Positions 1 to 7,691 of a stretch of DNA of 64,000 bases are shown in pieces. The translations under genes and the position numbers were made by a program. How positions within the stretch are numbered: the stretch's first letter is position 1; every line of letters begins with the position of its first letter. This DNA comes from Candidatus Omnitrophota bacterium (GTDB taxonomy: Bacteria; Omnitrophota; Gorgyraeia; Zapsychrales; JANLHA01), in the NCBI GenBank assembly GCA_040753435.1, contig JBFMEN010000069.1, forward strand, positions 47,551 through 111,550, read 5' to 3'. The notes beneath the pieces are model-generated. The model was given only the letters and a program-made list of their open reading frames with translations. It was not told the DNA's origin and made no database searches.

Positions 1-739
1 TATTTTTTCGACAACAGGAGGATATCAGGGAATCGGTTTTGCGATTCCGATAGACACGGTTAAACGTATCACATCAAAAATTATCCGGGGGGAAGAAGTT
101 GAATACGGATGGATCGGAGTTGCGATTCAAAACCTCGATCAAAATCTGGCGGAATACTTCGGGTTGAAGAATCCGGATGGTGTCCTGGTTCATGAAGTTC
201 TGGTTCAAGGCCCTGCATCAAAAGCAGGCATTCAAAAGGGCGACATTATTTTATCTGTTAACCAAAGAAGGGTAAGGAATGTTTCTGAATTGATTAATCT
301 CATTGGTGCAATTACACCGGGAAAAATAGTTTCTTTACGCGTGTTCAGGAATGGTTCAAGCCGGCAGGTTAAGGTTGAGGTTGAAAGGAATCCAGTGAGT
401 AATTATCAGCAGGAGCAACGCCGGGAAGAGGAAGAACCTGCCCAGTTTTCTATCCTTGAACAATGGCGGGGGCTAAGCATTCAGGATATTCCGAAATCAA
501 TGACAGCGGAAATGGGCCTTGAAAGTATTGAGGGTGTTTTAGTCGCTGATGTCCAGGTTGGCTCTCCGGCCGACGAGGCAGGAATCCAGCCGGGCAGTAT
601 CATCCTGAGTGTCGACAGCAAGGATATCAGCAATGCTAAAGAATTCGAGGATGCGGTGCGAAATAAAAAGGGTGATGTTCTTTTACGTACAAACCAGGCA
701 TTTGTCGTTGTGAAAAGCCCACAAAATAATAAAAAATAA
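1..739 (+). CDS. HtrA/DegP-family serine protease, C-terminal part (5' truncated at the window edge): end of the protease domain plus two PDZ domains
   Basis: Frame 2 is open from position 2 and reads ...GYQGIGFAIPIDTVKRI..., the typical end of an HtrA trypsin-like domain. It runs straight into listed ORF 164..739, which holds two PDZ-like segments (GVLVHEVLVQGPASKAGIQKGDIIL; GVLVADVQVGSPADEAGIQPGSIIL). The TTG 'start' at 164 is therefore internal. Confidence 0.8.
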   Translation, partial: IFSTTGGYQGIGFAIPIDTVKRITSKIIRGEEVEYGWIGVAIQNLDQNLAEYFGLKNPDGVLVHEVLVQGPASKAGIQKGDIILSVNQRRVRNVSELINLIGAITPGKIVSLRVFRNGSSRQVKVEVERNPVSNYQQEQRREEEEPAQFSILEQWRGLSIQDIPKSMTAEMGLESIEGVLVADVQVGSPADEAGIQPGSIILSVDSKDISNAKEFEDAVRNKKGDVLLRTNQAFVVVKSPQNNKK

Positions 740-773
740 TCATAATTTACCTGATAAGGAGCGGGAAAAGAAG

Positions 774-1343
774 ATGCAAGTTCCTTTGGAAATTACATTT
801 CGTGGCGGTGTTGAACATAACCCGGCCATTGAAGACTTAATTCGCAGGAAAACCCAAAAGATGGATCAATTCTGCGATCATGTCAGCAGTTGCCATGTCG
901 CTATTGAAACTACCCAGAGACATCAAGAACGCGGCAATACATATCGCGTCAGACTCGATATCTCGGTTCCACCCGGGCACAAAATTTTTGTTGAGCGTAC
1001 TCCGAGTAAAGGCCATATGCATGATCCATTGACAACAACCATTCGAGGAGCCTTTAAGGCTGCTTATCGTCAGGTCAGGGACTTGTCGGAAAAACAGAAC
1101 CGGGAAATCAAGAGTCACCCTGATCAGACAATGAATGCGGTCGTTTCAAAAATCAAGAAGAGCGCCGGATATGGTTTCTTGCGTTCATTTGAAGGGAGAG
1201 AGATTTATTTTCATCGCCATAGTGTTATTAATGTTGATTTTAATGATCTAATGGTGGGAGACGGGATTCATTACATTGAAGAGATCGGAAATAAAGGAGC
1301 CCAGGCTTCTTCGGTTCATTTAGTTAACAGAACAAATTTATAG
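774..1343 (+). CDS. Ribosome hibernation promoting factor (HPF/YfiA, S30AE family) N-terminal domain fused to a C-terminal cold-shock (CSD/OB) domain
   Basis: The N-terminus MQVPLEITFRG...NPAIEDLIRRKTQKMDQF..HV matches the HPF pattern (MQIxITGR...TPAlr.yvekKl.kLerf). The C-terminus GYGFLRSFEGREIYFHRHSVI...GDGIHYIEEIGNKGAQASSV matches the CspA-like pattern (GFGFI...G.DvFvH.Sai...G..V.F....G.KGP.A.nV). Confidence 0.65.
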   Translation: MQVPLEITFRGGVEHNPAIEDLIRRKTQKMDQFCDHVSSCHVAIETTQRHQERGNTYRVRLDISVPPGHKIFVERTPSKGHMHDPLTTTIRGAFKAAYRQVRDLSEKQNREIKSHPDQTMNAVVSKIKKSAGYGFLRSFEGREIYFHRHSVINVDFNDLMVGDGIHYIEEIGNKGAQASSVHLVNRTNL

Positions 1344-1346
1344 GAA

Positions 1347-2549
1347 ATGTTCGACGGGCTGATTTTAACAGAAAGTGGAGCGGCGATGCGTTTAATAACA
1401 CGGGATGAGCTGAAGGGATTGATTGATGCCAGAATGGAACCTTGTATATCGATTTACGCTCCTATGGGTGTCCATCCTTCCTTTGCCAGGGGGAATGCGA
1501 TTCGTTTTAAGAATCTGCTGTCTAGAGTGGTTGAAGAGCTTGGACTGGAATGGAACAAGAGAAGTACTGATGCAAAAGAACTTATTGAACCACTTCAACG
1601 GTTGTTAAAGGAAGATGCTTTTTGGCAAAATCAAAGCGGGGGCTTGTGCGCTTTTGCAGGTCCGGGTTTTTTTCGTTATTATCGAATCCCTCTGGAATTT
1701 GAAGAGATGGTGCATATTGATGATCATTTTTATACCGGGCCGCTGCTCCCGTTATTTACAGGAGACGGGCGTTTTTATCTTTTATCATTAAGCCAGCAAC
1801 AAGTCCGTTTGTTTGAAGGGACGCATTACAGGTTGAAAGAAATGGTTTTGGGTGACCTACCTGATAATCGGGAGGACGCGCTGCGATTTCATAATAAAGA
1901 GAAGCACTTGATATTTCATACACGAAGCGCCGGGAATGCACAGGAACGCGATGCCATGTTTCATGGGCACGGAAGCAGCTCGGAAGACTCTAAAAAAAAC
2001 ATAGCGCTTTTTTTTGAAAAGGTTGACCGGCATTTGATGGAAATCCTTGAGGGAGAGTCATCTCCGCTGATTCTGGCCGGAGTTGATTTTATGAGGGATT
2101 GTTATAAGGAAGTGAGTCATTACGCGCATATTTTGAACGAAGGTATCGCTGGAAACCATCAGCGCGAACGCATTGAGGGTCTTCATCGGCAGGCATGGGA
2201 CCTTGTTAAGAATGTATTCAAAGAAAGTATTCATCATGATGCTGCGCGTTTCAGGAATCTCCGTGCCATAAAAGAGTCATCAGATGACATTAAGGAAATT
2301 ATTGTCCGTGCCTTTGAGGGAAAGGTAAGCGTGCTTTTTGTGCCCGAAAAGGGGCATATTTGGGGTGAGTTTGACCGCGCATCTTTCCATGTCAATGTTT
2401 TCCCCGTCAAGATTAACGGCGATGATGATCTGCTTGAATTAACGTCCGAGCAAACAATCATTCATCGGGGAAGTGTTTATGCGGTCAAGCCTGATGAAAT
2501 TCCGGGAGAGTCCGGTGTCGCTGCAATTTTCAGGCAGGGGATAGTATAA
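1347..2549 (+). CDS. Conserved hypothetical protein, possibly a bacterial eRF1/Pelota-like (baeRF-type) release-factor-superfamily protein
   Basis: A 400-aa soluble ORF only 3 nt after the HPF-CSD gene. I recognise no enzymatic motif. The call comes from overall resemblance to long 'host-attachment/baeRF' proteins and the ribosome-associated neighbour, so the family assignment is tentative. Confidence 0.3.
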   Translation: MFDGLILTESGAAMRLITRDELKGLIDARMEPCISIYAPMGVHPSFARGNAIRFKNLLSRVVEELGLEWNKRSTDAKELIEPLQRLLKEDAFWQNQSGGLCAFAGPGFFRYYRIPLEFEEMVHIDDHFYTGPLLPLFTGDGRFYLLSLSQQQVRLFEGTHYRLKEMVLGDLPDNREDALRFHNKEKHLIFHTRSAGNAQERDAMFHGHGSSSEDSKKNIALFFEKVDRHLMEILEGESSPLILAGVDFMRDCYKEVSHYAHILNEGIAGNHQRERIEGLHRQAWDLVKNVFKESIHHDAARFRNLRAIKESSDDIKEIIVRAFEGKVSVLFVPEKGHIWGEFDRASFHVNVFPVKINGDDDLLELTSEQTIIHRGSVYAVKPDEIPGESGVAAIFRQGIV

Positions 2550-2554
2550 ATTTT

Positions 2555-2833
2555 ATGGAAAGTCGTCGGGTACATGTTTTGATCGCGGGAATCGTCCAGG
2601 GAGTATTTTTTCGTTCGTTCATGAAGGAGAAGGCCCAGGAACTTGGAGTTAAAGGCTGGGTAAAAAATCGGGTGGACGGAACGCTTGAATCGGTGATGGA
2701 AGGAAAAAAGGATGCAGTTGATGAATTAATTTCATGGTGCCGCAAGGGACCTCCCATGGCCGACGTTGATTATATTCATTTGGAGCGAGAAGACTTTAGA
2801 GATGAGTTCAAATCTTTTAATATTGAATATTAA
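2555..2833 (+). CDS. acyP: Acylphosphatase
   Basis: A 92-aa protein with the signature VHVLIAGIVQGVFFR (the V.G.VQGV.FR phosphate-binding loop). Confidence 0.85.
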   Translation: MESRRVHVLIAGIVQGVFFRSFMKEKAQELGVKGWVKNRVDGTLESVMEGKKDAVDELISWCRKGPPMADVDYIHLEREDFRDEFKSFNIEY

Positions 2834-2844
2834 AAATTTATGAA

Positions 2845-3522
2845 TTGATGAGAGAGGCAGCTATGGTTATTGGAAAAGATAAAATAAAGCAGGACGTCGA
2901 GGATCAGATATCAAATGACAATCGTGTCAGTGCCAGTGAAATTAATGTTGATGTGGACAAGGGTGAGGTTATATTGCGCGGCCGGGCGGGATCCTATTTG
3001 GCCAGGAGGGCAGCTGAGACGGATGCCTGGGTTGTTGAAGGAGTGATTAACGTAAAAAATGAAATCGATGTGAGCTATCCCATCGATAAAATGCTGACTG
3101 ATAATGAAATCCGAAAGAACATAGATGAGTTTTTACTATATAATCCGCAAATTGACGCATCCAAAGTCGACATCGGTGTCAGAAGCGGGATTGTGACTTT
3201 ATTTGGAAGTGTTGATCATTATTGGAAAAAAAATGCTGTTGAAGAAGCGGTGAACGATCTCACAGGAGTCAAAGGCGTTATTAACGAACTTGCCGTAGTG
3301 CCAACCAAGCAATTATCAGATGAAGTGATTGCTCAGGAAATTTTATCTACAGCCGAGCTGGATTTCCCGGTTGATATGAACAAGATTATCGTTGAGGTCG
3401 AAGAAGGCCGGGTGACGCTTAAGGGCATCGTTCCCGACTGGAAATCCGGCAAAATTATCTACGATAAGGCCTGCTATACAACCGGAGTTGTTGATGTCGA
3501 TAATCAAATGGAAATTCAATAA
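2845..3522 (+). CDS. BON-domain protein (OsmY-like, three BON repeats)
   Basis: Repeated ~60-aa units with V.V.V..G.VtL.G.V...W....A...A..v.GV..V.N.l.V motifs (e.g. INVDVDKGEVILRGRA, IGVRSGIVTLFGSV, IIVEVEEGRVTLKGIV). Confidence 0.75.
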   Translation: MMREAAMVIGKDKIKQDVEDQISNDNRVSASEINVDVDKGEVILRGRAGSYLARRAAETDAWVVEGVINVKNEIDVSYPIDKMLTDNEIRKNIDEFLLYNPQIDASKVDIGVRSGIVTLFGSVDHYWKKNAVEEAVNDLTGVKGVINELAVVPTKQLSDEVIAQEILSTAELDFPVDMNKIIVEVEEGRVTLKGIVPDWKSGKIIYDKACYTTGVVDVDNQMEIQ

Positions 3523-3711: not shown

Positions 3712-4155
3712 ATGGAAAGGGTAAAGGAAGAACTGGTGACAATGCTTAACCAGGCCCTTGAGTTGGAGCATGCGGCCCGTATACAGTACCTTGCTCATGC
3801 GGAGGCAATAAAAGGGCTTCAATCTGAGAAACTGATTGAGCGGATTAAAGAGATTGCTTCTGATGAAGAAAAACATGAAGAGATGTTTCGTGAGATGATT
3901 GGCGGTTATTTGGGAGGTATTCCGACTATGGGCATGTCGGAGACCCATTCAGCCTTCGAAATCCAGCAGATCCTTGATGTAAATATGAAACAGGAAAAGG
4001 ACGCAATTGATTTTTATAAAAAGATCTACAAAAAAGTTATCGATAACAAGGAAAATCTCCAATATCAATTTGAGGCGCTTGAGCACAGCATTCGTCACAT
4101 TATTATTGATGAGGAGGAACATGTGTCAGAGCTTTCTTTATTGATGGGGATTTAA
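3712..4155 (+). CDS. Ferritin-like four-helix-bundle protein (di-iron, Rbr/Dps-like superfamily)
   Basis: Paired E...EH / E..H motifs (LELEHAARIQY; EEKHEEMFREMI; LEHSIRHI..EEEH), as in ferritin-like di-iron carboxylate proteins. Confidence 0.5.
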   Translation: MERVKEELVTMLNQALELEHAARIQYLAHAEAIKGLQSEKLIERIKEIASDEEKHEEMFREMIGGYLGGIPTMGMSETHSAFEIQQILDVNMKQEKDAIDFYKKIYKKVIDNKENLQYQFEALEHSIRHIIIDEEEHVSELSLLMGI

Positions 4156-4175
4156 GGAACGGCAGAAGACGAGAG

Positions 4176-4418
4176 GTGGCCATGTCCAATGTGAAGGTTT
4201 ATAGTACGCCTGCGTGTCCGTATTGTCGAAAGGCGAAGGAATTTCTTCATGAAAACAACATTGAGTTCGAAGATATTAATATTGCGGCAGATCAACGGAC
4301 AGCCAGGGAAATTATTGAGAAAACAGGGAGAATGAGCGTTCCGGTGATTGACATCGATGGAAAATATATCATTGGATATGATGAGCCGGCATTAAAAGAA
4401 ACTCTCCATATTAAATAG
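4176..4418 (+). CDS. Glutaredoxin-like protein (NrdH/Grx family)
   Basis: 80 aa with a CPYC redox motif (STPACPYCRKAKEFL) and a ...VPVIDIDGKYIIGYDE... thioredoxin-fold tail. Confidence 0.8.
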   Translation: MAMSNVKVYSTPACPYCRKAKEFLHENNIEFEDINIAADQRTAREIIEKTGRMSVPVIDIDGKYIIGYDEPALKETLHIK

Positions 4419-4449
4419 TGAAAGGACGGGGGCAGGATCAGGAGGAAAC

Positions 4450-5361
4450 ATGCTTGATGTGGTGATTATCGGTGCAGGCATTGCCGGATGTACTGCTGCG
4501 GTTTATGCTGCCAGAAACCGAATGGATTATTTGCTGGTTTCGGATAATTTTGGGGGCCAGTTTCTGGAATCAGGCATGATCTTGAACTATCCCGGTGTTA
4601 TTCAGACCGATGGATTTAAATTTCGTTCTGCCTTTGAAAAACAGCTGGAATTTAACGGTGTTCAGCGCCTTATTGGCCCCCATATCAAAAAAATTGAATC
4701 CATTGAAAACGGTTTCAGACTTATCGGGGATCGGCAGGAGTTTGAGACCCAAACTGTTATTATTGCCACAGGCTCGCATCCCAGGAAATTGAATGTTCCC
4801 GGGGAGGATAGTTTTTTAAATCGAGGGGTGACTTATTGTTCGGTTTGTGATGGGCCTCTCTTTGCGGACAAAATAATTGCTATTATCGGTGGAGGAAATT
4901 CAGCCCTTGAAGGCATTCATTTCACACACAGAATCGCGAAAAAGATCTATCTGATTAATATCGAAGATCATTTTAGCGCCCATGCCTATTTGAGCGAAAC
5001 GATAGCCTCTTTTGAAAATGTTGAGGTTATTGATAAAGCAAGGACTTTCGAAATTTTCGGGGATGATTTTGTTCAGGGATTGCGATATGAAAGGGAAGGC
5101 AAACAATATCAACTGGATGTTCATGGGATCATTATAGAAATAGGCCGAACGCCTAATACTGATTTTTTAAAAGGTTTTGTTGAACTGGATGAGAAGAAAC
5201 ATGTTGTGATTGATTGCCAGTCGCGCACTTCCGTTGAAGGGGTTTTCGCCGCGGGTGATTGCGCTTCGGGGTTGGAATATCAATATGTGATTGCGGCCGG
5301 ACAAGGATGCATCGCTTTGTTAAAAGCGGCTAGATATTTGTCAAACCGAAGAGATTTTTAA
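4450..5361 (+). CDS. Thioredoxin-disulfide reductase-like FAD/NAD(P)-dependent pyridine nucleotide-disulfide oxidoreductase
   Basis: N-terminal FAD motif VVIIGAGIAGCTAAVYAA, redox-active CSVCDG (compare TrxB CATCDG), a second dinucleotide motif IAIIGGGNSALE, and C-terminal FAAGDC. Confidence 0.7.
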   Translation: MLDVVIIGAGIAGCTAAVYAARNRMDYLLVSDNFGGQFLESGMILNYPGVIQTDGFKFRSAFEKQLEFNGVQRLIGPHIKKIESIENGFRLIGDRQEFETQTVIIATGSHPRKLNVPGEDSFLNRGVTYCSVCDGPLFADKIIAIIGGGNSALEGIHFTHRIAKKIYLINIEDHFSAHAYLSETIASFENVEVIDKARTFEIFGDDFVQGLRYEREGKQYQLDVHGIIIEIGRTPNTDFLKGFVELDEKKHVVIDCQSRTSVEGVFAAGDCASGLEYQYVIAAGQGCIALLKAARYLSNRRDF

Positions 5362-5395
5362 AATCATCGACCTTGAAGAAGAGGGAGGGCTGTTC

Positions 5396-5971
5396 ATGAC
5401 CGGTATACCCAAAAACATACTGCCAGTAGGGTTGCTGATGAAAGAACACAGATTGATTGAAAAAATGGTTAGGGTAATCGACGGTAAAATTAAAGAGTAC
5501 AAGGGTTCGGGAAGACCGGATGGGTTTTTCATTAATGGCGTTGTTGATTTTTTTAAAGTCTATGCAGACAAAAATCATCATGGCAAAGAAGAAGAAATCC
5601 TGTTTGCCCGATTGGAGAACAGGGACATTACATTGCAGCACCGGGCCATTATGCAAAATCTTCTTCGGGATCATGTTCAAAGCCGGAAGATCGTAGGGAA
5701 GATCAGGGAGTTGAATGCGGGGATATTCAAAAATAGCCCCCAGGCGATTGATGAAGTGATTGCACATTTACAGACGTTAGCCAGTCTTTATACAAACCAT
5801 ATTGATGTTGAGGATAATCATTTTTTTCTTCCTGTCATGGGTTATTTCAGCAAAGTTGAACAGGAGAAGATGATTGAGGATTTTATCGATTTTGATCGAC
5901 AGTTTGTTCACAACCATTATAGGGATTTCGTTAGCGGTTTCTTGAAAGGCACGGAAGGTCATGCGATCTGA
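5396..5971 (+). CDS. Hemerythrin-like domain protein
   Basis: His/Glu spacing of the HHE cation-binding domain (MKEHRLIEKM; KNHHGKEEEILF; LRDHVQSRK; HIDVEDNHFF). Confidence 0.45.
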   Translation: MTGIPKNILPVGLLMKEHRLIEKMVRVIDGKIKEYKGSGRPDGFFINGVVDFFKVYADKNHHGKEEEILFARLENRDITLQHRAIMQNLLRDHVQSRKIVGKIRELNAGIFKNSPQAIDEVIAHLQTLASLYTNHIDVEDNHFFLPVMGYFSKVEQEKMIEDFIDFDRQFVHNHYRDFVSGFLKGTEGHAI

Positions 5972-7691
5972 ATTGATGATACGGGTAACTGGTGAGGCTG
6001 GGCAAGGTTTGAAGACCATCGGTAACCTTCTTTGCAAAATCTTCAGACGCTCAGGGTGGAATCTTTTTGCAAACCAGGATTATATGTCCCGCATACGCGG
6101 CGGGAATAATTTTTTTCAGATCCGGGTGTCAAATAAGCCTGTTTGTTGCACACGGGAAAAATGCGACTTGATTGTCGCGCTTGATAAGGACAGCGTCGGT
6201 ATCCACCGTAAAGATCTGAATGAAAGCGGCCGGATGATCGCTGATCTGCAGAAATTTGGTATCGAAAACGATCCCCAATATATTGACATCCCTCTTTTTG
6301 ACATTGCCCAAAAAATCGGGGGAAACGATATTTATATTAATTCTGTCGCTTGCGGAATGATTAGCGCTTTGGCCGGGGTTAATTTTGCTAGTGTAAAAAA
6401 GGAACTGGAAATGACATTTGCCAGGAAAGGCGCGGATATTATCGAAAAAAATATCCATGCGGCCTTTTCAGGTTATGAGAAGGTAAACAGTCAAGCCAAA
6501 GACTGCGGTTTTGTTTTAAAAGAAGATCCAGAGAAAACGGGTATGCTTATTGACGGCAATGACGCTATCGGAATTAGCGCCATTGTTTCCGGTTGTAAAT
6601 TCTATTCAGGTTATCCCATGACGCCGTCTACCGGTATTATGGAATTCATTGCGCGTTACGCCGATCGTTTCAATATTGTTGTTGAGCAGGCTGAGGATGA
6701 AATTGCCGCGGTGAACATGGTTATCGGGGCCTCTTATGCCGGTGTTCGATCTATGACCTCAACCTCAGGAGGAGGTTTTGCGCTGATGACCGAGGCCCTG
6801 AGTCTGGCGGGAATGACGGAGACTCCGATTGTTATTGTCGATGCTCAGCGTCCTGGACCGGCAACGGGTTTTCCAACACGTACGGAACAGGCGGATATTG
6901 ATTTCCTGATTAATGCCGGTCATGGGGAATTCGCCAGAGCAGTCCTTAGCCCAGGCACTATAGAAGAAGCATTTTATTTAACAAATAAAGCCTTTTATTT
7001 GGCCGATAAATACCAAATCCCGGTCTTGTTGATGACAGACCAGCATCTGGCAGACTCTTATCGGAATGTTGATCTCTTTGATATCAGCAGGATCAATAAT
7101 GAACACTTCATTATTTCTAAAGAGGCATCTGTTCATGTTAATAATTACAAGCGATATGCCTTAACACAAACTGGAATTTCTCCCCGGGCGATCCCTTCAT
7201 GGATTGCTGATGTTATTTATGCCGACAGTGACGAGCATACGGAAGAAGGTCATATAACCGAAGATGCCGATGTGCGTATTCAAATGGTTCAGAAGCGGTT
7301 TTATAAGAAGATGGAAGGTTTGCAACAGGAAGTTGAAGAGCCCGTAGCGTACAAGGTTGATGACGCGGACATGATCCTTATCGGTTATGGTTCAACATTT
7401 GGTGCGATTAATGAGGTCTGCCGGTCAGAAACGAATTTGGGATTTATTCATTTACCGCAGGTATGGCCTTTTCCAGCGTCCCGGTTTCAACAGTTGATAA
7501 AGAAAGGGAAAAAACTGTTAACGGTTGAAGGGAATGCCGGAGGAAAGCTGGCGAAATTAATCAAAATGGAAACCTGTATCGAAGTTAATGGATCAATTCT
7601 TCGTTATGATGGCCGCCCCATTAATCGTGATTATCTCTTATCTAAATTGGCAGAGGAGTTGAAGCATGGATCTTCAAACCTATCAAAGTAA
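5961..7691 (+). CDS. korA: 2-oxoacid:ferredoxin oxidoreductase alpha subunit with fused N-terminal gamma domain (KorA/VorA-like)
   Basis: An N-terminal gamma-type domain (IRVTGEAGQGLKTIGNLL) is followed by the alpha-subunit core (GYPMTPSTGIMEF, VEQAEDEIAAVNMVIGASYAGVRSMTSTSGGGFALM). It overlaps the beta-subunit gene. Confidence 0.85.
   Translation: MRSELMIRVTGEAGQGLKTIGNLLCKIFRRSGWNLFANQDYMSRIRGGNNFFQIRVSNKPVCCTREKCDLIVALDKDSVGIHRKDLNESGRMIADLQKFGIENDPQYIDIPLFDIAQKIGGNDIYINSVACGMISALAGVNFASVKKELEMTFARKGADIIEKNIHAAFSGYEKVNSQAKDCGFVLKEDPEKTGMLIDGNDAIGISAIVSGCKFYSGYPMTPSTGIMEFIARYADRFNIVVEQAEDEIAAVNMVIGASYAGVRSMTSTSGGGFALMTEALSLAGMTETPIVIVDAQRPGPATGFPTRTEQADIDFLINAGHGEFARAVLSPGTIEEAFYLTNKAFYLADKYQIPVLLMTDQHLADSYRNVDLFDISRINNEHFIISKEASVHVNNYKRYALTQTGISPRAIPSWIADVIYADSDEHTEEGHITEDADVRIQMVQKRFYKKMEGLQQEVEEPVAYKVDDADMILIGYGSTFGAINEVCRSETNLGFIHLPQVWPFPASRFQQLIKKGKKLLTVEGNAGGKLAKLIKMETCIEVNGSILRYDGRPINRDYLLSKLAEELKHGSSNLSK

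What the first reader, a model, noticed from the sequence alone, without database searches (positions are those of the whole stretch)
774..2549. HPF fused to a cold-shock domain, followed 3 nt later by a possible release-factor-superfamily protein
The 189-aa ORF has a clear YfiA/HPF (S30AE) N-terminal domain. Its C-terminal domain is not the usual long-HPF dimerisation domain but reads as a CspA-type OB fold (GYGFLRSFEGREIYFHRHSV...GDGIHYIEEIGNKGAQASSV). The next gene, 400 aa, is unannotatable by simple motifs but resembles the bacterial eRF1/Pelota-like 'baeRF' proteins. Together they would form a ribosome hibernation/rescue module, with an RNA-binding CSD tethered to the hibernation factor.
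Basis: partly seen in the sequence, partly recalled or inferred. Interest (0 to 1): 0.5.

Follow-up and report, generated by a model that had tools for sequence, protein, structure and literature searches.

The report
HPFcold plus Balon ribosome-hibernation gene pair

Summary

**ORF1 (774..1343, 189 aa):** It has an S30AE/HPF domain plus a cold-shock domain, and both score above the Pfam cut-offs. It aligns over its full length (E=7e-32) with C. burnetii CBU_0020, "HPFcold" (PDB 9T0Z/9TZE). In that structure the cold-shock domain clamps the anti-Shine-Dalgarno 3' end of 16S rRNA.

**ORF2:** It is a three-domain aeRF1-like protein (Pfam baeRF family 7/3). It aligns end to end with the hibernation factor Balon (8RD8_B; profile E=1e-47), and Balon is the best match to its predicted fold. 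It lacks both NIKS and GGQ, so it is a hibernation factor, not a release or rescue enzyme.

**Correction:** ORF2 most likely starts at 1386 (387 aa, the same as the NCBI gene call). That makes the gap 42 nt, not 3.

**Prior literature:** The baeRF–HPF neighbourhood was reported in 2019, Balon in 2024, HPF–Csp chimeras next to Balon in 2025, and the HPFcold structure in 2026.

**My surveys:** The pairing recurs but is uncommon. Four of 80 HPFcold genome loci have it, in both gene orders, and at most one of 80 Balon-side loci does.

**Verdict:** new member of a known kind, low interest. What remains untested is whether HPFcold and Balon occupy one ribosome together.

The parts
757..761 (+). Shine-Dalgarno-like AGGAG, 12 nt upstream of the HPFcold start codon
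   Evidence: Read directly from the sequence. The spacing is longer than optimal. A sigma-70-like site at 702-730 lies just upstream, but the promoter scan found no more sites than chance predicts.
774..1343 (+). HPFcold gene (189 aa, includes the stop codon); GenBank MEW5895901.1, annotated 'HPF/RaiA family ribosome-associated protein', Ca. Omnitrophota MAG
   Evidence: ORF. Pfam S30AE+CSD. Full-length match to 9T0Z chain 9 / CBU_0020 at E=6.7e-32. Identical deposited protein.
774..1106 (+). S30AE / HPF-RaiA ribosome-binding domain (aa 1-111; beta-alpha-beta-beta-beta-alpha)
   Evidence: Pfam PF02482 at 38.9 bits. The AF2 model has pLDDT 88. Foldseek matches RaiA/HPF/pY at TM 0.79-0.92, including P. 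urativorans RaiA 8rd8_D at TM 0.87. Basic positions R10, R24, K29, R60, R75, R91 and R99 are K/R in at least 80% of the family.
1107..1127 (+). Short inter-domain linker (aa 112-118, IKSHPDQ; lowest pLDDT in the model)
   Evidence: The model has a helix ending at residue 111 and a strand starting at 119, with pLDDT about 60 in this block. The homologue CBU_0020 has a six-residue linker (PMC13392368).
1128..1328 (+). Cold-shock domain (aa 119-185), five-stranded OB fold, predicted clamp for the anti-Shine-Dalgarno sequence
   Evidence: Pfam PF00313 at 33.7 bits. Foldseek matches CspA/CspC/CspE at TM 0.84-0.90 and rmsd 1.2-1.7 A. The residues that stack on the anti-SD in CBU_0020 (F132, Y142) correspond to F135 and Y145 here, which are conserved in 107/111 and 110/111 family members. 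R123 corresponds to K126, a K/R position in 82/111.
1377..1380 (+). Shine-Dalgarno GGAG, 5 nt upstream of the ATG at 1386 (the probable true start of the Balon-like gene)
   Evidence: Read directly from the sequence. The ATG at 1347 has only AGGAA directly abutting it.
1386..2549 (+). Balon-family (baeRF family 7/3) hibernation factor gene, 387 aa plus stop; GenBank MEW5895902.1 (AB1650_09155, 'hypothetical protein'). The mechanical ORF begins at 1347.
   Evidence: Pfam baeRF_family7 at 142.5 bits and family3 at 131.1 bits. NCBIfam Balon-family model at 121.6 bits, below its 330-bit cut-off. 8RD8_B at E=2e-11 for the single sequence and 1e-47 for the profile, full length in both. The AF2 model has pLDDT 86.8. 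The top Foldseek hits are the Balon structures.
1473..1478 (+). His-Pro (aa 30-31), in the loop that aligns with the 'EHP' of P. urativorans Balon; candidate for the decoding-centre 'HP motif'
   Evidence: HP aligns with HP in two pairwise alignments. The column varies across the subfamily, where the consensus is P-T-H-[RK]-x-G, so the assignment is tentative.
1905..1973 (+). Loop at the tip of the middle domain (aa 174-196), equivalent to the aeRF1 GGQ loop and Balon's lasso loop; it carries F-H-G-H-G in place of GGQ
   Evidence: It is the only segment with pLDDT below 50. GGQ is absent. F-H-G-[H/Q]-G is conserved in the subfamily, with G194 in at least 90% of members.
2555..2833 (+). Acylphosphatase gene, 5 nt downstream of the Balon-like gene; probably co-transcribed
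   Evidence: Pfam PF00708 at 93.3 bits. Tight spacing on the same strand.
2845..3522 (+). OsmY-like protein with three BON domains, 11 nt downstream; probably the last gene of the tightly packed block
   Evidence: Pfam BON at 127.3 bits over 3 stretches. OsmY is listed as a recurrent neighbour of Balon genes (PMC10901736).

Best explanation
The locus encodes two ribosome hibernation factors from families that are already described, expressed together as part of a stress-response gene block. Gene 1 is an HPFcold. Its S30AE domain should sit in the 30S decoding/tRNA cleft and block mRNA and tRNA binding. Its cold-shock domain, joined by a roughly 7-residue linker, should sit in the mRNA exit channel and wrap the single-stranded anti-Shine-Dalgarno 3' end of 16S rRNA. 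That would protect the 3' end from RNases and keep the ribosome as a 70S monomer, since the protein has no dimerisation domain. Gene 2 is a Balon-family aeRF1-like protein. It should occupy the A site from the decoding centre to the edge of the peptidyl-transferase centre without catalysing peptide release, probably with EF-Tu(GDP) bound to its C-domain. Balon and the HPF-fold protein RaiA are seen together on one P. urativorans ribosome, so the most likely end state here is one 70S carrying both HPFcold and the Balon-like protein. Shown here: the ORFs, the domain architecture, full-length homology and predicted-fold matches to the solved factors, conservation of the two anti-SD-stacking aromatic residues, absence of NIKS and GGQ, and recurrence of the gene pair in other phyla. 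Inferred: ribosome binding, anti-SD protection, EF-Tu involvement, co-occupancy and co-transcription.
For: HPFcold: Pfam S30AE+CSD above the cut-offs, with no long-HPF C-domain. Full-length alignment to the ribosome-bound CBU_0020 (9T0Z/9TZE) at E=6.7e-32. The predicted two-domain fold matches RaiA/HPF and CspA-type proteins. The anti-SD contacts F132 and Y142 of CBU_0020 are retained as F135 and Y145, and R123 becomes K126. The mechanism of the homologue is taken from PMC13392368.
Balon-like: baeRF family 7/3. P. urativorans Balon itself is Pfam family 3. Full-length homology to 8RD8_B at E=2e-11 for the single sequence, 24% identity, and 1e-47 for the profile, plus MSMEG_1130 at 2e-6. The AF2 model (pLDDT 86.8) has the Balon structures as its top Foldseek hits (E=1e-22, TM 0.62-0.65), ahead of aRF1, eRF1 and Pelota. 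NIKS is absent in 40 of 40 family members and GGQ is absent in the window protein.
Link between the two: the pair recurs in Lyngbya (L026), Gemmatales (L072), Gemmataceae (L068) and a filamentous cyanobacterium (L077), and in both gene orders. If a Balon gene were placed at random in a genome of at least 3 Mb, fewer than 0.4 of 80 loci would have one within 6 kb; 4 were observed (my rough estimate). Balon and RaiA co-bind one ribosome, and Balon genes are 'most frequently' adjacent to RaiA genes (PMC10901736). HPF-Csp chimeras are reported as frequently adjacent to Balon (bioRxiv 10.1101/2025.11.04.686544). The baeRF-HPF neighbourhood was noted in 2019 (PMC6514570). The surrounding genes are stress-type: a probable HtrA-like protease, an acylphosphatase, a BON/OsmY-like protein, a ferritin-like protein, glutaredoxin, a thioredoxin-reductase-like protein and hemerythrin.
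Against: There is no experimental data for this organism or these two proteins. The Balon-like protein scores 121.6 bits against the NCBIfam Balon equivalog model, whose cut-off is 330, and is only 24% identical to Balon, so it belongs to a distinct subfamily. The HP-motif column varies across that subfamily. The bridging Arg of CBU_0020 (R177) is Ser here and Thr/Ser across most of the family. The pairing is not the rule: 76 of 80 HPFcold genome loci have no Balon-like gene within 6 kb; 0 of 80 metagenomic Balon-side loci carry a full HPFcold, and one has a partial S30AE ORF; and 3 of 3 sampled Balon homologues have no HPF neighbour. The two factors therefore clearly work without each other in most lineages. 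No HPFcold+Balon ribosome structure exists, and C. burnetii HPFcold was seen without Balon. The 16S 3' end of this genome is not in the window, so its anti-SD sequence could not be checked.
Confidence: 0.8

Rival explanations
1. The two factors act independently. They lie side by side only because both belong to a co-regulated stress island, and they bind different ribosome populations or act at different stages. For example, Balon could bind ribosomes that still carry mRNA and peptidyl-tRNA, while HPFcold binds vacant ones. There would be no joint complex.
For: The pairing is rare in both directions: 4 of 80 from the HPFcold side and at most 1 of 80 from the Balon side. HPFcold works without Balon in C. 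burnetii. One third of Balon-bound P. urativorans ribosomes lacked RaiA and carried mRNA and tRNA instead. HPFcold's commonest partners are a PRTase and DUF2267, not Balon.
Against: About two thirds of ice-shock Balon-bound ribosomes, and nearly all stationary-phase ribosomes, carried Balon and RaiA together (PMC10901736). Balon's HP-motif binding mode stays 10 A from the mRNA channel, which is what permits co-binding with the HPF fold. The pairing arose in both gene orders in at least three phyla, which argues for selection for linkage.
Confidence: 0.3
2. The 387-aa protein is an active aeRF1-type release or rescue factor that frees stalled ribosomes, so the pair would be a 'rescue then hibernate' module. 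This is the 'rescue' half of the first reader's proposal.
For: It has the aeRF1/Pelota three-domain fold. Burroughs & Aravind considered rescue roles for some baeRF families. The loop equivalent to the GGQ loop keeps a Gly-rich conserved motif, F-H-G-[H/Q]-G, which has a Gln in about half of the family.
Against: There is no GGQ and no NIKS. The window protein has His, not Gln, at the variable position. The loop varies in length and is predicted to be disordered, which is the pattern Burroughs & Aravind associate with catalytically inactive families. The closest solved relatives are non-catalytic hibernation factors.
Confidence: 0.05
3. The CSD of ORF1 acts on mRNA or other cellular RNA, for example as a cold-shock RNA chaperone, in autoregulation, or to recruit HPF to particular transcripts. 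It would not clamp the 16S anti-SD.
For: It is a generic CspA-type fold with RNP1-like (GYGF) and RNP2-like (IYFH) motifs. R177 of CBU_0020 is not conserved. The anti-SD of this genome could not be inspected.
Against: The full-length homologue has been seen directly with its CSD on the anti-SD. The stacking residues F135 and Y145 and the neighbouring G134, E143, F146 and H147 are invariant or nearly so across 111 family members. That fits a conserved ligand such as the 16S 3' end better than variable mRNAs. A short 7-residue linker ties the CSD to a ribosome-bound domain.
Confidence: 0.08

Closest known systems
HPFcold (C. burnetii CBU_0020; PDB 9T0Z/9TZE; Nat Commun 2026, PMC13392368). Also described as an 'HPF-Csp chimera' in bioRxiv 10.1101/2025.11.04.686544.
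   Same: Same two-domain architecture: PF02482 + PF00313, a short linker and no dimerisation domain. Full-length alignment at E=6.7e-32. The aromatic residues that stack on the anti-SD are conserved. The deposited annotation is the same ('HPF/RaiA family').
   Different: A 5-residue insertion in the S30AE domain (around aa 77-85, PSKGHMHDP) relative to CBU_0020. The rRNA-bridging R177 is Ser here. The host is Ca. Omnitrophota, a phylum that a term search of that paper's supplementary files did not find. Here it is followed by a Balon-family gene; the C. burnetii HPFcold-bound ribosome structure was reported without a Balon-type factor.
Balon (P. urativorans AOC03_06830, PDB 8RD8/8RDV/8RDW; mycobacterial Msmeg1130 and Rv2629, PDB 8V9J/K/L; Nature 2024, PMC10901736)
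   Same: aeRF1-like N/M/C three-domain fold. Full-length homology. No NIKS and no GGQ. A disordered loop at the tip of the M domain. A neighbouring HPF-family gene and an OsmY-type gene.
   Different: Only 24% identical. It scores below the NCBIfam equivalog cut-off (121.6 vs 330 bits). Its best Pfam family is baeRF_family7, narrowly ahead of family3, whereas Balon is family3. The M-domain loop carries F-H-G-[H/Q]-G where Balon has GDGGSD. The partner is HPFcold rather than a short RaiA.
Long HPF (e.g. S. aureus and B. subtilis HPF; 100S dimer formation)
   Same: The N-terminal S30AE domain, and a role in shutting down ribosomes in stationary phase or under stress.
   Different: The C-terminal dimerisation domain is replaced by a CSD, so 70S-monomer hibernation is expected rather than 100S dimers.
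aeRF1 / Pelota (Dom34) of archaea and eukaryotes
   Same: Shared fold and A-site mimicry. The C-domain binds a translational GTPase of the EF-Tu/eEF1A family.
   Different: No stop-codon recognition motif (NIKS), no catalytic GGQ and no Pelota loop A. The predicted role is storage, not termination or rescue.

Membership tests
HPFcold (S30AE-CSD hibernation factor) | N-terminal S30AE / sigma-54-modulation fold (PF02482) | tested here: met
   38.9 bits against a 23.7-bit cut-off. Foldseek TM 0.79-0.92 to RaiA/HPF/pY.
HPFcold (S30AE-CSD hibernation factor) | [quoted passage not shown] | tested here: met
   CSD at 33.7 bits against a 27-bit cut-off, with no other Pfam family at E<=1. TM 0.84-0.90 to CspA/C/E. 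The linker spans aa 112-118.
HPFcold (S30AE-CSD hibernation factor) | Full-length sequence homology to the solved founding member, CBU_0020 | tested here: met
   E=6.7e-32, query residues 1-182 against chain residues 6-179 of 9t0z_9.
HPFcold (S30AE-CSD hibernation factor) | Aromatic residues that stack on anti-SD bases (F132 and Y142 in CBU_0020) and the base-pairing R123 | tested here: met
   F135 and Y145 are identical and K126 is a conservative change. Across the family these positions are F in 107/111, Y in 110/111 and K/R in 82/111.
HPFcold (S30AE-CSD hibernation factor) | R177, which bridges two 16S segments in CBU_0020 | tested here: not met
   This position is S180 here, and T or S in 89 of 111 family members. 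It is therefore a Coxiella-lineage feature and not a family-defining one.
HPFcold (S30AE-CSD hibernation factor) | Binds the 30S cleft and the 16S 3' end on the ribosome | not testable with these tools
   This needs biochemistry or cryo-EM. There is no 16S gene in the window.
Balon family (bacterial aeRF1-like hibernation factor) | aeRF1-like three-domain (N/M/C) fold | tested here: met
   The AF2 model has pLDDT 86.8 and pTM 0.80. The top Foldseek hits are 8rd8_B, 8rdv_B, 8rdw_B, 8v9j_z and 8v9k_z, followed by aRF1, eRF1 and Pelota.
Balon family (bacterial aeRF1-like hibernation factor) | Full-length sequence homology to Balon | tested here: met
   phmmer E=2.2e-11. The family profile gives E=9.9e-48 over positions 7-383 against 3-369, and MSMEG_1130 at 2e-6. 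BLASTP gives 24% identity.
Balon family (bacterial aeRF1-like hibernation factor) | Absence of the NIKS (stop-codon) and GGQ (hydrolysis) motifs | tested here: met
   Neither motif is in the window protein. NIKS occurs in 0 of 40 family members and GGQ in 2 of 40, only one of those in the loop.
Balon family (bacterial aeRF1-like hibernation factor) | HP motif in the N-domain that contacts A1492 and A1913 | tested here: inconclusive
   H30-P31 aligns with Balon's EHP in the pairwise alignments. The column varies across the subfamily, and the paper's text gives no residue numbers.
Balon family (bacterial aeRF1-like hibernation factor) | Lasso loop and bL27 trap in the M-domain; EF-Tu-binding beta-hairpin in the C-domain | tested here: inconclusive
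   There is a disordered M-domain loop at aa 174-196 and a two-strand element at aa 326-339 with an invariant W326-G327. I could not make a residue-level superposition on 8RDW.
Balon family (bacterial aeRF1-like hibernation factor) | Passes the NCBIfam NF052287 'AOC03_06830 family' equivalog cut-off | tested here: not met
   121.6 bits against a 330-bit cut-off. It is a homologue in a sister subfamily (Pfam baeRF family 7/3), not an equivalog.
Balon family (bacterial aeRF1-like hibernation factor) | Occupies the ribosomal A site under stress, with EF-Tu(GDP) | not testable with these tools
   This needs cryo-EM or biochemistry.
Class-I release or rescue factor (aeRF1 / Pelota function) | Catalytic GGQ (aeRF1), or loop A that probes an empty mRNA channel (Pelota) | tested here: not met
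   There is no GGQ. The loop reads F-H-G-H-G and has low confidence in the model.
Long HPF (100S-forming) | C-terminal dimerisation domain (Pfam Ribosom_S30AE_C) | tested here: not met
   Pfam gives no such hit at E<=1. The C-terminal half is an OB-fold CSD.

The most novel reading that the evidence does not exclude
HPFcold and the Balon-family protein bind the same 70S at the same time, probably with EF-Tu(GDP). That would give a hibernation state not yet observed, in which one two-gene cassette covers the decoding cleft, the anti-Shine-Dalgarno 3' end, the A site and the approach to the peptidyl-transferase centre, with no ribosome dimerisation. The cassette would have been assembled independently in Omnitrophota, Cyanobacteria and Planctomycetota because the two factors cooperate.
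Probability: 0.45. Interest if true: 0.4.

Novelty: new member of a known kind. Interest (0 to 1): 0.2.

Why it matters
The locus adds a Candidatus Omnitrophota example to two recently defined families of ribosome hibernation factors, in a largely uncultured phylum. It is also a natural case where HPFcold and a Balon-type factor are encoded side by side. The literature already predicts this pairing, so the locus changes no concept. It could still serve as a compact two-gene construct for testing whether anti-SD protection by the CSD and A-site occupation by Balon coexist on one ribosome. The surveys here also qualify a published statement. HPF-Csp chimeras are said to be 'frequently' adjacent to Balon, but in my sample the adjacency is about 5% from the HPFcold side and about 1% or less from the side of this Balon subfamily. 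That is enriched over chance, but it is far from the rule.

Tried and rejected
- **Second HPF, second Balon or RNA genes in the window.** I searched all window ORFs with HMMs built from the two families and found nothing beyond the two genes. Rfam at gathering thresholds gave no match in the 64 kb, so the anti-SD of this genome could not be checked.
- **Attenuator or occluded RBS at the gene junction.** Folding 1285-1400 gave z=-0.14, no better than shuffled sequence. The 'terminator-like' hit at 1294-1311 is weak, and the scan found fewer terminator-like sites than chance predicts.
- **Promoter.** The site at 702-730 is only a 9/12 match, and the site count equals the chance expectation, so I make no claim.
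- **Metagenome synteny with the 40-sequence Balon alignment.** This failed because no stretch was conserved enough. I repeated it with 15 closer sequences.
- **Gene context of the window's own contig.** The exact-match look-up of P0116 found nothing on record. I obtained the accessions through the cluster look-up instead.
- **HPFcold-Balon fusion proteins.** The long HPFcold representatives carry OsmC, a dienelactone hydrolase or a DksA/TraR zinc finger, and one has a PRTase in place of the CSD. None carries Balon.
- **Plasmid carriage of the pair.** HPFcold occurs on a few megaplasmids, but no Balon gene is annotated nearby. The PLSDB gene tables are incomplete, so this is weak negative evidence.
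- **Residue numbers for Balon's HP motif.** The paper's text does not give them, so that membership feature stays inconclusive.
Full report
**1. Observation**

Pfam finds two domains in ORF1. Ribosomal_S30AE covers aa 6-108 (38.9 bits, cut-off 23.7), and the cold-shock domain covers aa 120-182 (33.7 bits, cut-off 27). No other family appears at E<=1, so there is no long-HPF C-terminal dimerisation domain.

ORF2 matches five bacterial aeRF1-like (baeRF) Pfam families. The best are family 7 (142.5 bits) and family 3 (131.1 bits). NCBIfam's only hit is NF052287, 'AOC03_06830 family ribosome hibernation factor', which is the Balon family. It scores 121.6 bits, below the equivalog cut-off of 330.

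Both proteins are already deposited, with consecutive accessions, from a Candidatus Omnitrophota MAG contig of 119,441 bp. MEW5895901.1 is annotated 'HPF/RaiA family ribosome-associated protein'. MEW5895902.1 is annotated 'hypothetical protein AB1650_09155'.

**2. A correction to the anatomy**

The '3-nt gap' assumes the first in-frame ATG, at 1347. Three observations point to the ATG at 1386 as the real start:
- It has a GGAG five nt upstream (1377-1380), whereas the 1347 ATG has only AGGAA directly abutting it.
- The first position of an HMM built from 100+ homologues aligns to the Met at 1386.
- The deposited protein is the 387-aa form.

The likely gap is therefore 42 nt. It folds no better than shuffled sequence (z=-0.14). 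I found no convincing terminator or promoter within the pair.

**3. Gene 1 is an HPFcold**

Against PDB sequences, ORF1 aligns over its whole length (residues 1-182 against 6-179, E=6.7e-32) with chain 9 of 9T0Z/9TZE, 'Ribosome hibernation promoting factor'.

That structure is C. burnetii CBU_0020, named HPFcold (Nat Commun 2026, PMC13392368). Its S30AE domain sits in the 30S tRNA/decoding cleft. Its CSD occupies the mRNA exit channel and wraps the anti-Shine-Dalgarno 3' end of 16S rRNA, held by bS21 and uS7. The authors propose that this protects 70S monomers from RNases without dimerisation.

The paper's supplement names four contacts: U1534 stacks on Y142, C1535 stacks on F132 and pairs with R123, and R177 bridges two rRNA segments. 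Mapped through the alignment, these positions are Y145, F135, K126 and S180 in the window protein. Across 111 family members:

| Window residue | CBU_0020 residue | Conservation in the family |
|---|---|---|
| Y145 | Y142 | Y in 110/111 |
| F135 | F132 | F in 107/111 |
| K126 | R123 | K or R in 82/111 |
| S180 | R177 | T or S in 89/111 |

The stacking core is therefore family-wide, while the bridging Arg is specific to the Coxiella lineage.

The AlphaFold2 model (pLDDT 88.3) has a beta-alpha-beta-beta-beta-alpha N-domain, a low-confidence linker of about 7 residues, and a five-stranded barrel. Foldseek matches the N-domain to RaiA/HPF/pY at TM 0.79-0.92, including the P. urativorans RaiA that co-binds with Balon (8rd8_D, TM 0.87). 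It matches the C-domain to CspA/CspC/CspE at TM 0.84-0.90 and rmsd 1.2-1.7 A.

The family is large. All but a few of the 115 90%-identity clusters found carry both PF02482 and PF00313. At 50% identity, 1,069 representatives reach E<=1e-10. At least 570 GTDB species genomes carry a copy.

**4. Gene 2 is a Balon-family factor**

- The single sequence aligns end to end with 8RD8 chain B, which is P. urativorans Balon (E=2.2e-11; 24% identity).
- A 40-sequence family profile raises this to E=9.9e-48 over positions 7-383 against 3-369. It also reaches the mycobacterial Balon MSMEG_1130 (E=2e-6).
- P. urativorans Balon itself scores best against Pfam baeRF_family3 (105.6 bits). The window protein scores 131.1 bits against that same model.
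- The AlphaFold2 model (pLDDT 86.8, pTM 0.80) has the three Balon entries as its top Foldseek hits (E about 1e-22, TM 0.62-0.65). Msmeg1130 and Rv2629 follow, and only then aRF1, eRF1 and Pelota.

The defining negative features hold. There is no NIKS (0 of 40 family members) and no GGQ in the window protein.

The only disordered segment (aa 174-196) lies where aeRF1 has its GGQ loop and Balon has its lasso loop. It carries a subfamily motif, F-H-G-[H/Q]-G, in a loop of variable length. Burroughs & Aravind associated loss of the catalytic Gln and unconstrained loop length with catalytically inactive baeRF families (PMC6514570).

An H-P dipeptide (aa 30-31) aligns with Balon's EHP in both pairwise alignments. 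The column varies across the subfamily, and the Balon paper's text gives no residue numbers. I leave the HP motif as inconclusive. The same applies to the bL27 trap and the EF-Tu beta-hairpin, which need a residue-level superposition I could not make.

**5. How it most likely works**

By homology, HPFcold should block the decoding cleft and cap the 16S 3' end, while the Balon-like protein should fill the A site up to the edge of the PTC without releasing peptide, probably with EF-Tu(GDP).

In P. urativorans, about two thirds of Balon-bound ribosomes after ice shock, and practically all in stationary phase, also carried RaiA. Balon's binding mode stays 10 A from the mRNA channel, which is what permits that co-binding (PMC10901736). 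The window's HPFcold N-domain has the same fold as that RaiA, so a joint HPFcold+Balon 70S is the natural prediction. It remains an inference, because no such complex has been observed.

Balon can also bind ribosomes that still hold mRNA and peptidyl-tRNA. A plausible order is Balon first and HPFcold once the mRNA channel is empty. This too is inference.

The gene block continues with an acylphosphatase after 5 nt and a three-BON OsmY-like protein after 11 nt. After a 190-nt gap come a ferritin-like protein, glutaredoxin, a thioredoxin-reductase-like protein and hemerythrin. Upstream is an ORF with two PDZ domains that is open to the window edge. I read it as an HtrA/DegQ-type protease from its GIGFAIP motif, though Pfam found only the PDZ domains. 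OsmY is a listed Balon neighbour.

**6. How general is the pairing?**

From the HPFcold side, only 4 of the 80 best genome loci have a Balon-like gene within 6 kb. A relaxed search (E<1) found no others.

| Locus | Organism | Arrangement |
|---|---|---|
| L026 | Lyngbya aestuarii | HPFcold then Balon, 50-nt gap |
| L072 | Gemmatales | HPFcold then Balon, 24-nt gap |
| L068 | Gemmataceae | PRTase, Balon, HPFcold, all abutting |
| L077 | filamentous cyanobacterium CCP2 | DUF2267, Balon, cupin, HPFcold; Balon and HPFcold 1.4 kb apart |

With random placement of one Balon gene in a genome of at least 3 Mb, I would expect fewer than 0.4 such loci in 80. The Poisson probability of seeing 4 or more is about 3e-4 (a rough estimate of my own). 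Some contigs had short flanks, so 4 of 80 is a lower bound.

Both gene orders occur in at least three phyla, counting this window. That argues for repeated assembly of the pair, not a single inherited operon.

From the Balon side the pairing is rarer still:
- None of the 80 closest metagenomic loci has a full HPFcold next to it. One has a partial S30AE ORF at a contig edge (L163), and one has a stand-alone CSD gene directly upstream (L085).
- Three sampled homologues, from Phycisphaerae, Anaerolineae and Nostoc, have no HPF neighbour.

The published statement that chimeric HPFs are 'frequently found adjacent to' Balon is qualitatively right, since the adjacency is enriched. Quantitatively it is modest in my samples.

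**7. Comparison with what is known, and novelty**

Each element has precedent:
- 2019: the baeRF-HPF neighbourhood, with a prediction of non-catalytic A-site blockers (PMC6514570).
- 2024: Balon structure and function, with RaiA as its most frequent neighbour (PMC10901736).
- 2025: HPF-Csp chimeras that lack the dimerisation domain and are often next to Balon (bioRxiv 10.1101/2025.11.04.686544).
- 2026: the HPFcold cryo-EM structure (PMC13392368).

The locus is a new member of a known kind. It comes from Ca. Omnitrophota, a phylum not named in the HPFcold paper's text or found in its supplements. Its Balon-like protein belongs to a sister subfamily to the characterised Balons.

**8. Verdict**

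Interest is low (0.2). The one open question of some value is whether HPFcold and Balon occupy the same ribosome at once.

Noticed in passing
L001-L080 (e.g. L068:4078-4779, directly upstream of Balon-like 4805-5986 and HPFcold 5986-6564); protein P0303: The commonest neighbour of HPFcold genes is a co-directional upstream phosphoribosyltransferase (PF00156), found in 19 of 80 genome loci with a median gap of 38 nt. One database protein (P0303, 267 aa) is an HPFcold-type S30AE domain fused to a PRTase domain in place of the CSD. A link between a PRTase and a hibernation factor is unexplained.
   Followed up: partly
L032:5331-5924; L077:2987-3388: DUF2267 genes lie just upstream of HPFcold in 9 of 80 loci. 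In L077 the DUF2267 gene directly abuts the Balon-like gene.
   Followed up: partly
Proteins P0240 (351 aa), P0331 (425 aa), P0350 (324 aa): Rare longer HPFcold variants carry an extra C-terminal OsmC domain, a dienelactone-hydrolase domain or a DksA/TraR zinc finger. They could be real three-domain fusions or run-on gene calls in metagenomes.
   Followed up: partly
L085:804-1061 (CSD) upstream of L085:1251-2447 (Balon-like); L163:1-327 (S30AE) upstream of L163:402-1571: In one metagenomic contig a stand-alone cold-shock protein gene sits directly upstream of a Balon-like gene. In another, a partial S30AE ORF does. These may be 'unfused' versions of the same association.
   Followed up: no
L085-L164 (e.g. 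L121:2774-3226): The commonest neighbour of this Balon subfamily in metagenomes (16 of 80 loci, mostly upstream and co-directional) is a small Lys/Glu-rich protein that looks secreted and coiled-coil. It has no significant Pfam match.
   Followed up: partly
L165 (Methylocella tundrae plasmid 2) 5001-5567 and 5579-6919; L166 (Sinorhizobium fredii pSF45436d) 5001-5552: Full-length HPFcold genes occur on megaplasmids, one of them conjugative. In Methylocella the HPFcold gene is followed after 11 nt by an 'erythromycin esterase family protein'. No Balon gene is annotated nearby.
   Followed up: partly
window 1-739 (+): The upstream ORF is open to the left edge of the window. It ends with two PDZ domains preceded by a GIGFAIP-type motif, so it is probably an HtrA/DegQ-type serine protease cut off by the window boundary. 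It stops 34 nt before the HPFcold start codon.
   Followed up: partly
window 1-64000: GC skew is positive in every 2-kb bin across the whole 64 kb, and every gene I annotated in the first 8 kb is on the + strand. This fits a single replichore with strong co-orientation of genes. Rfam found no tRNA, rRNA or other RNA family at gathering thresholds.
   Followed up: no
window 3712-7691 (+): Downstream of the hibernation block is a run of redox and oxidative-stress genes: a ferritin/rubrerythrin-like protein, glutaredoxin, a thioredoxin-reductase-like flavoprotein and hemerythrin. I annotated the following 576-aa ORF by eye as a 2-oxoacid:ferredoxin oxidoreductase subunit and did not test that. 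The set suggests an anaerobe's oxygen-stress island.
   Followed up: no
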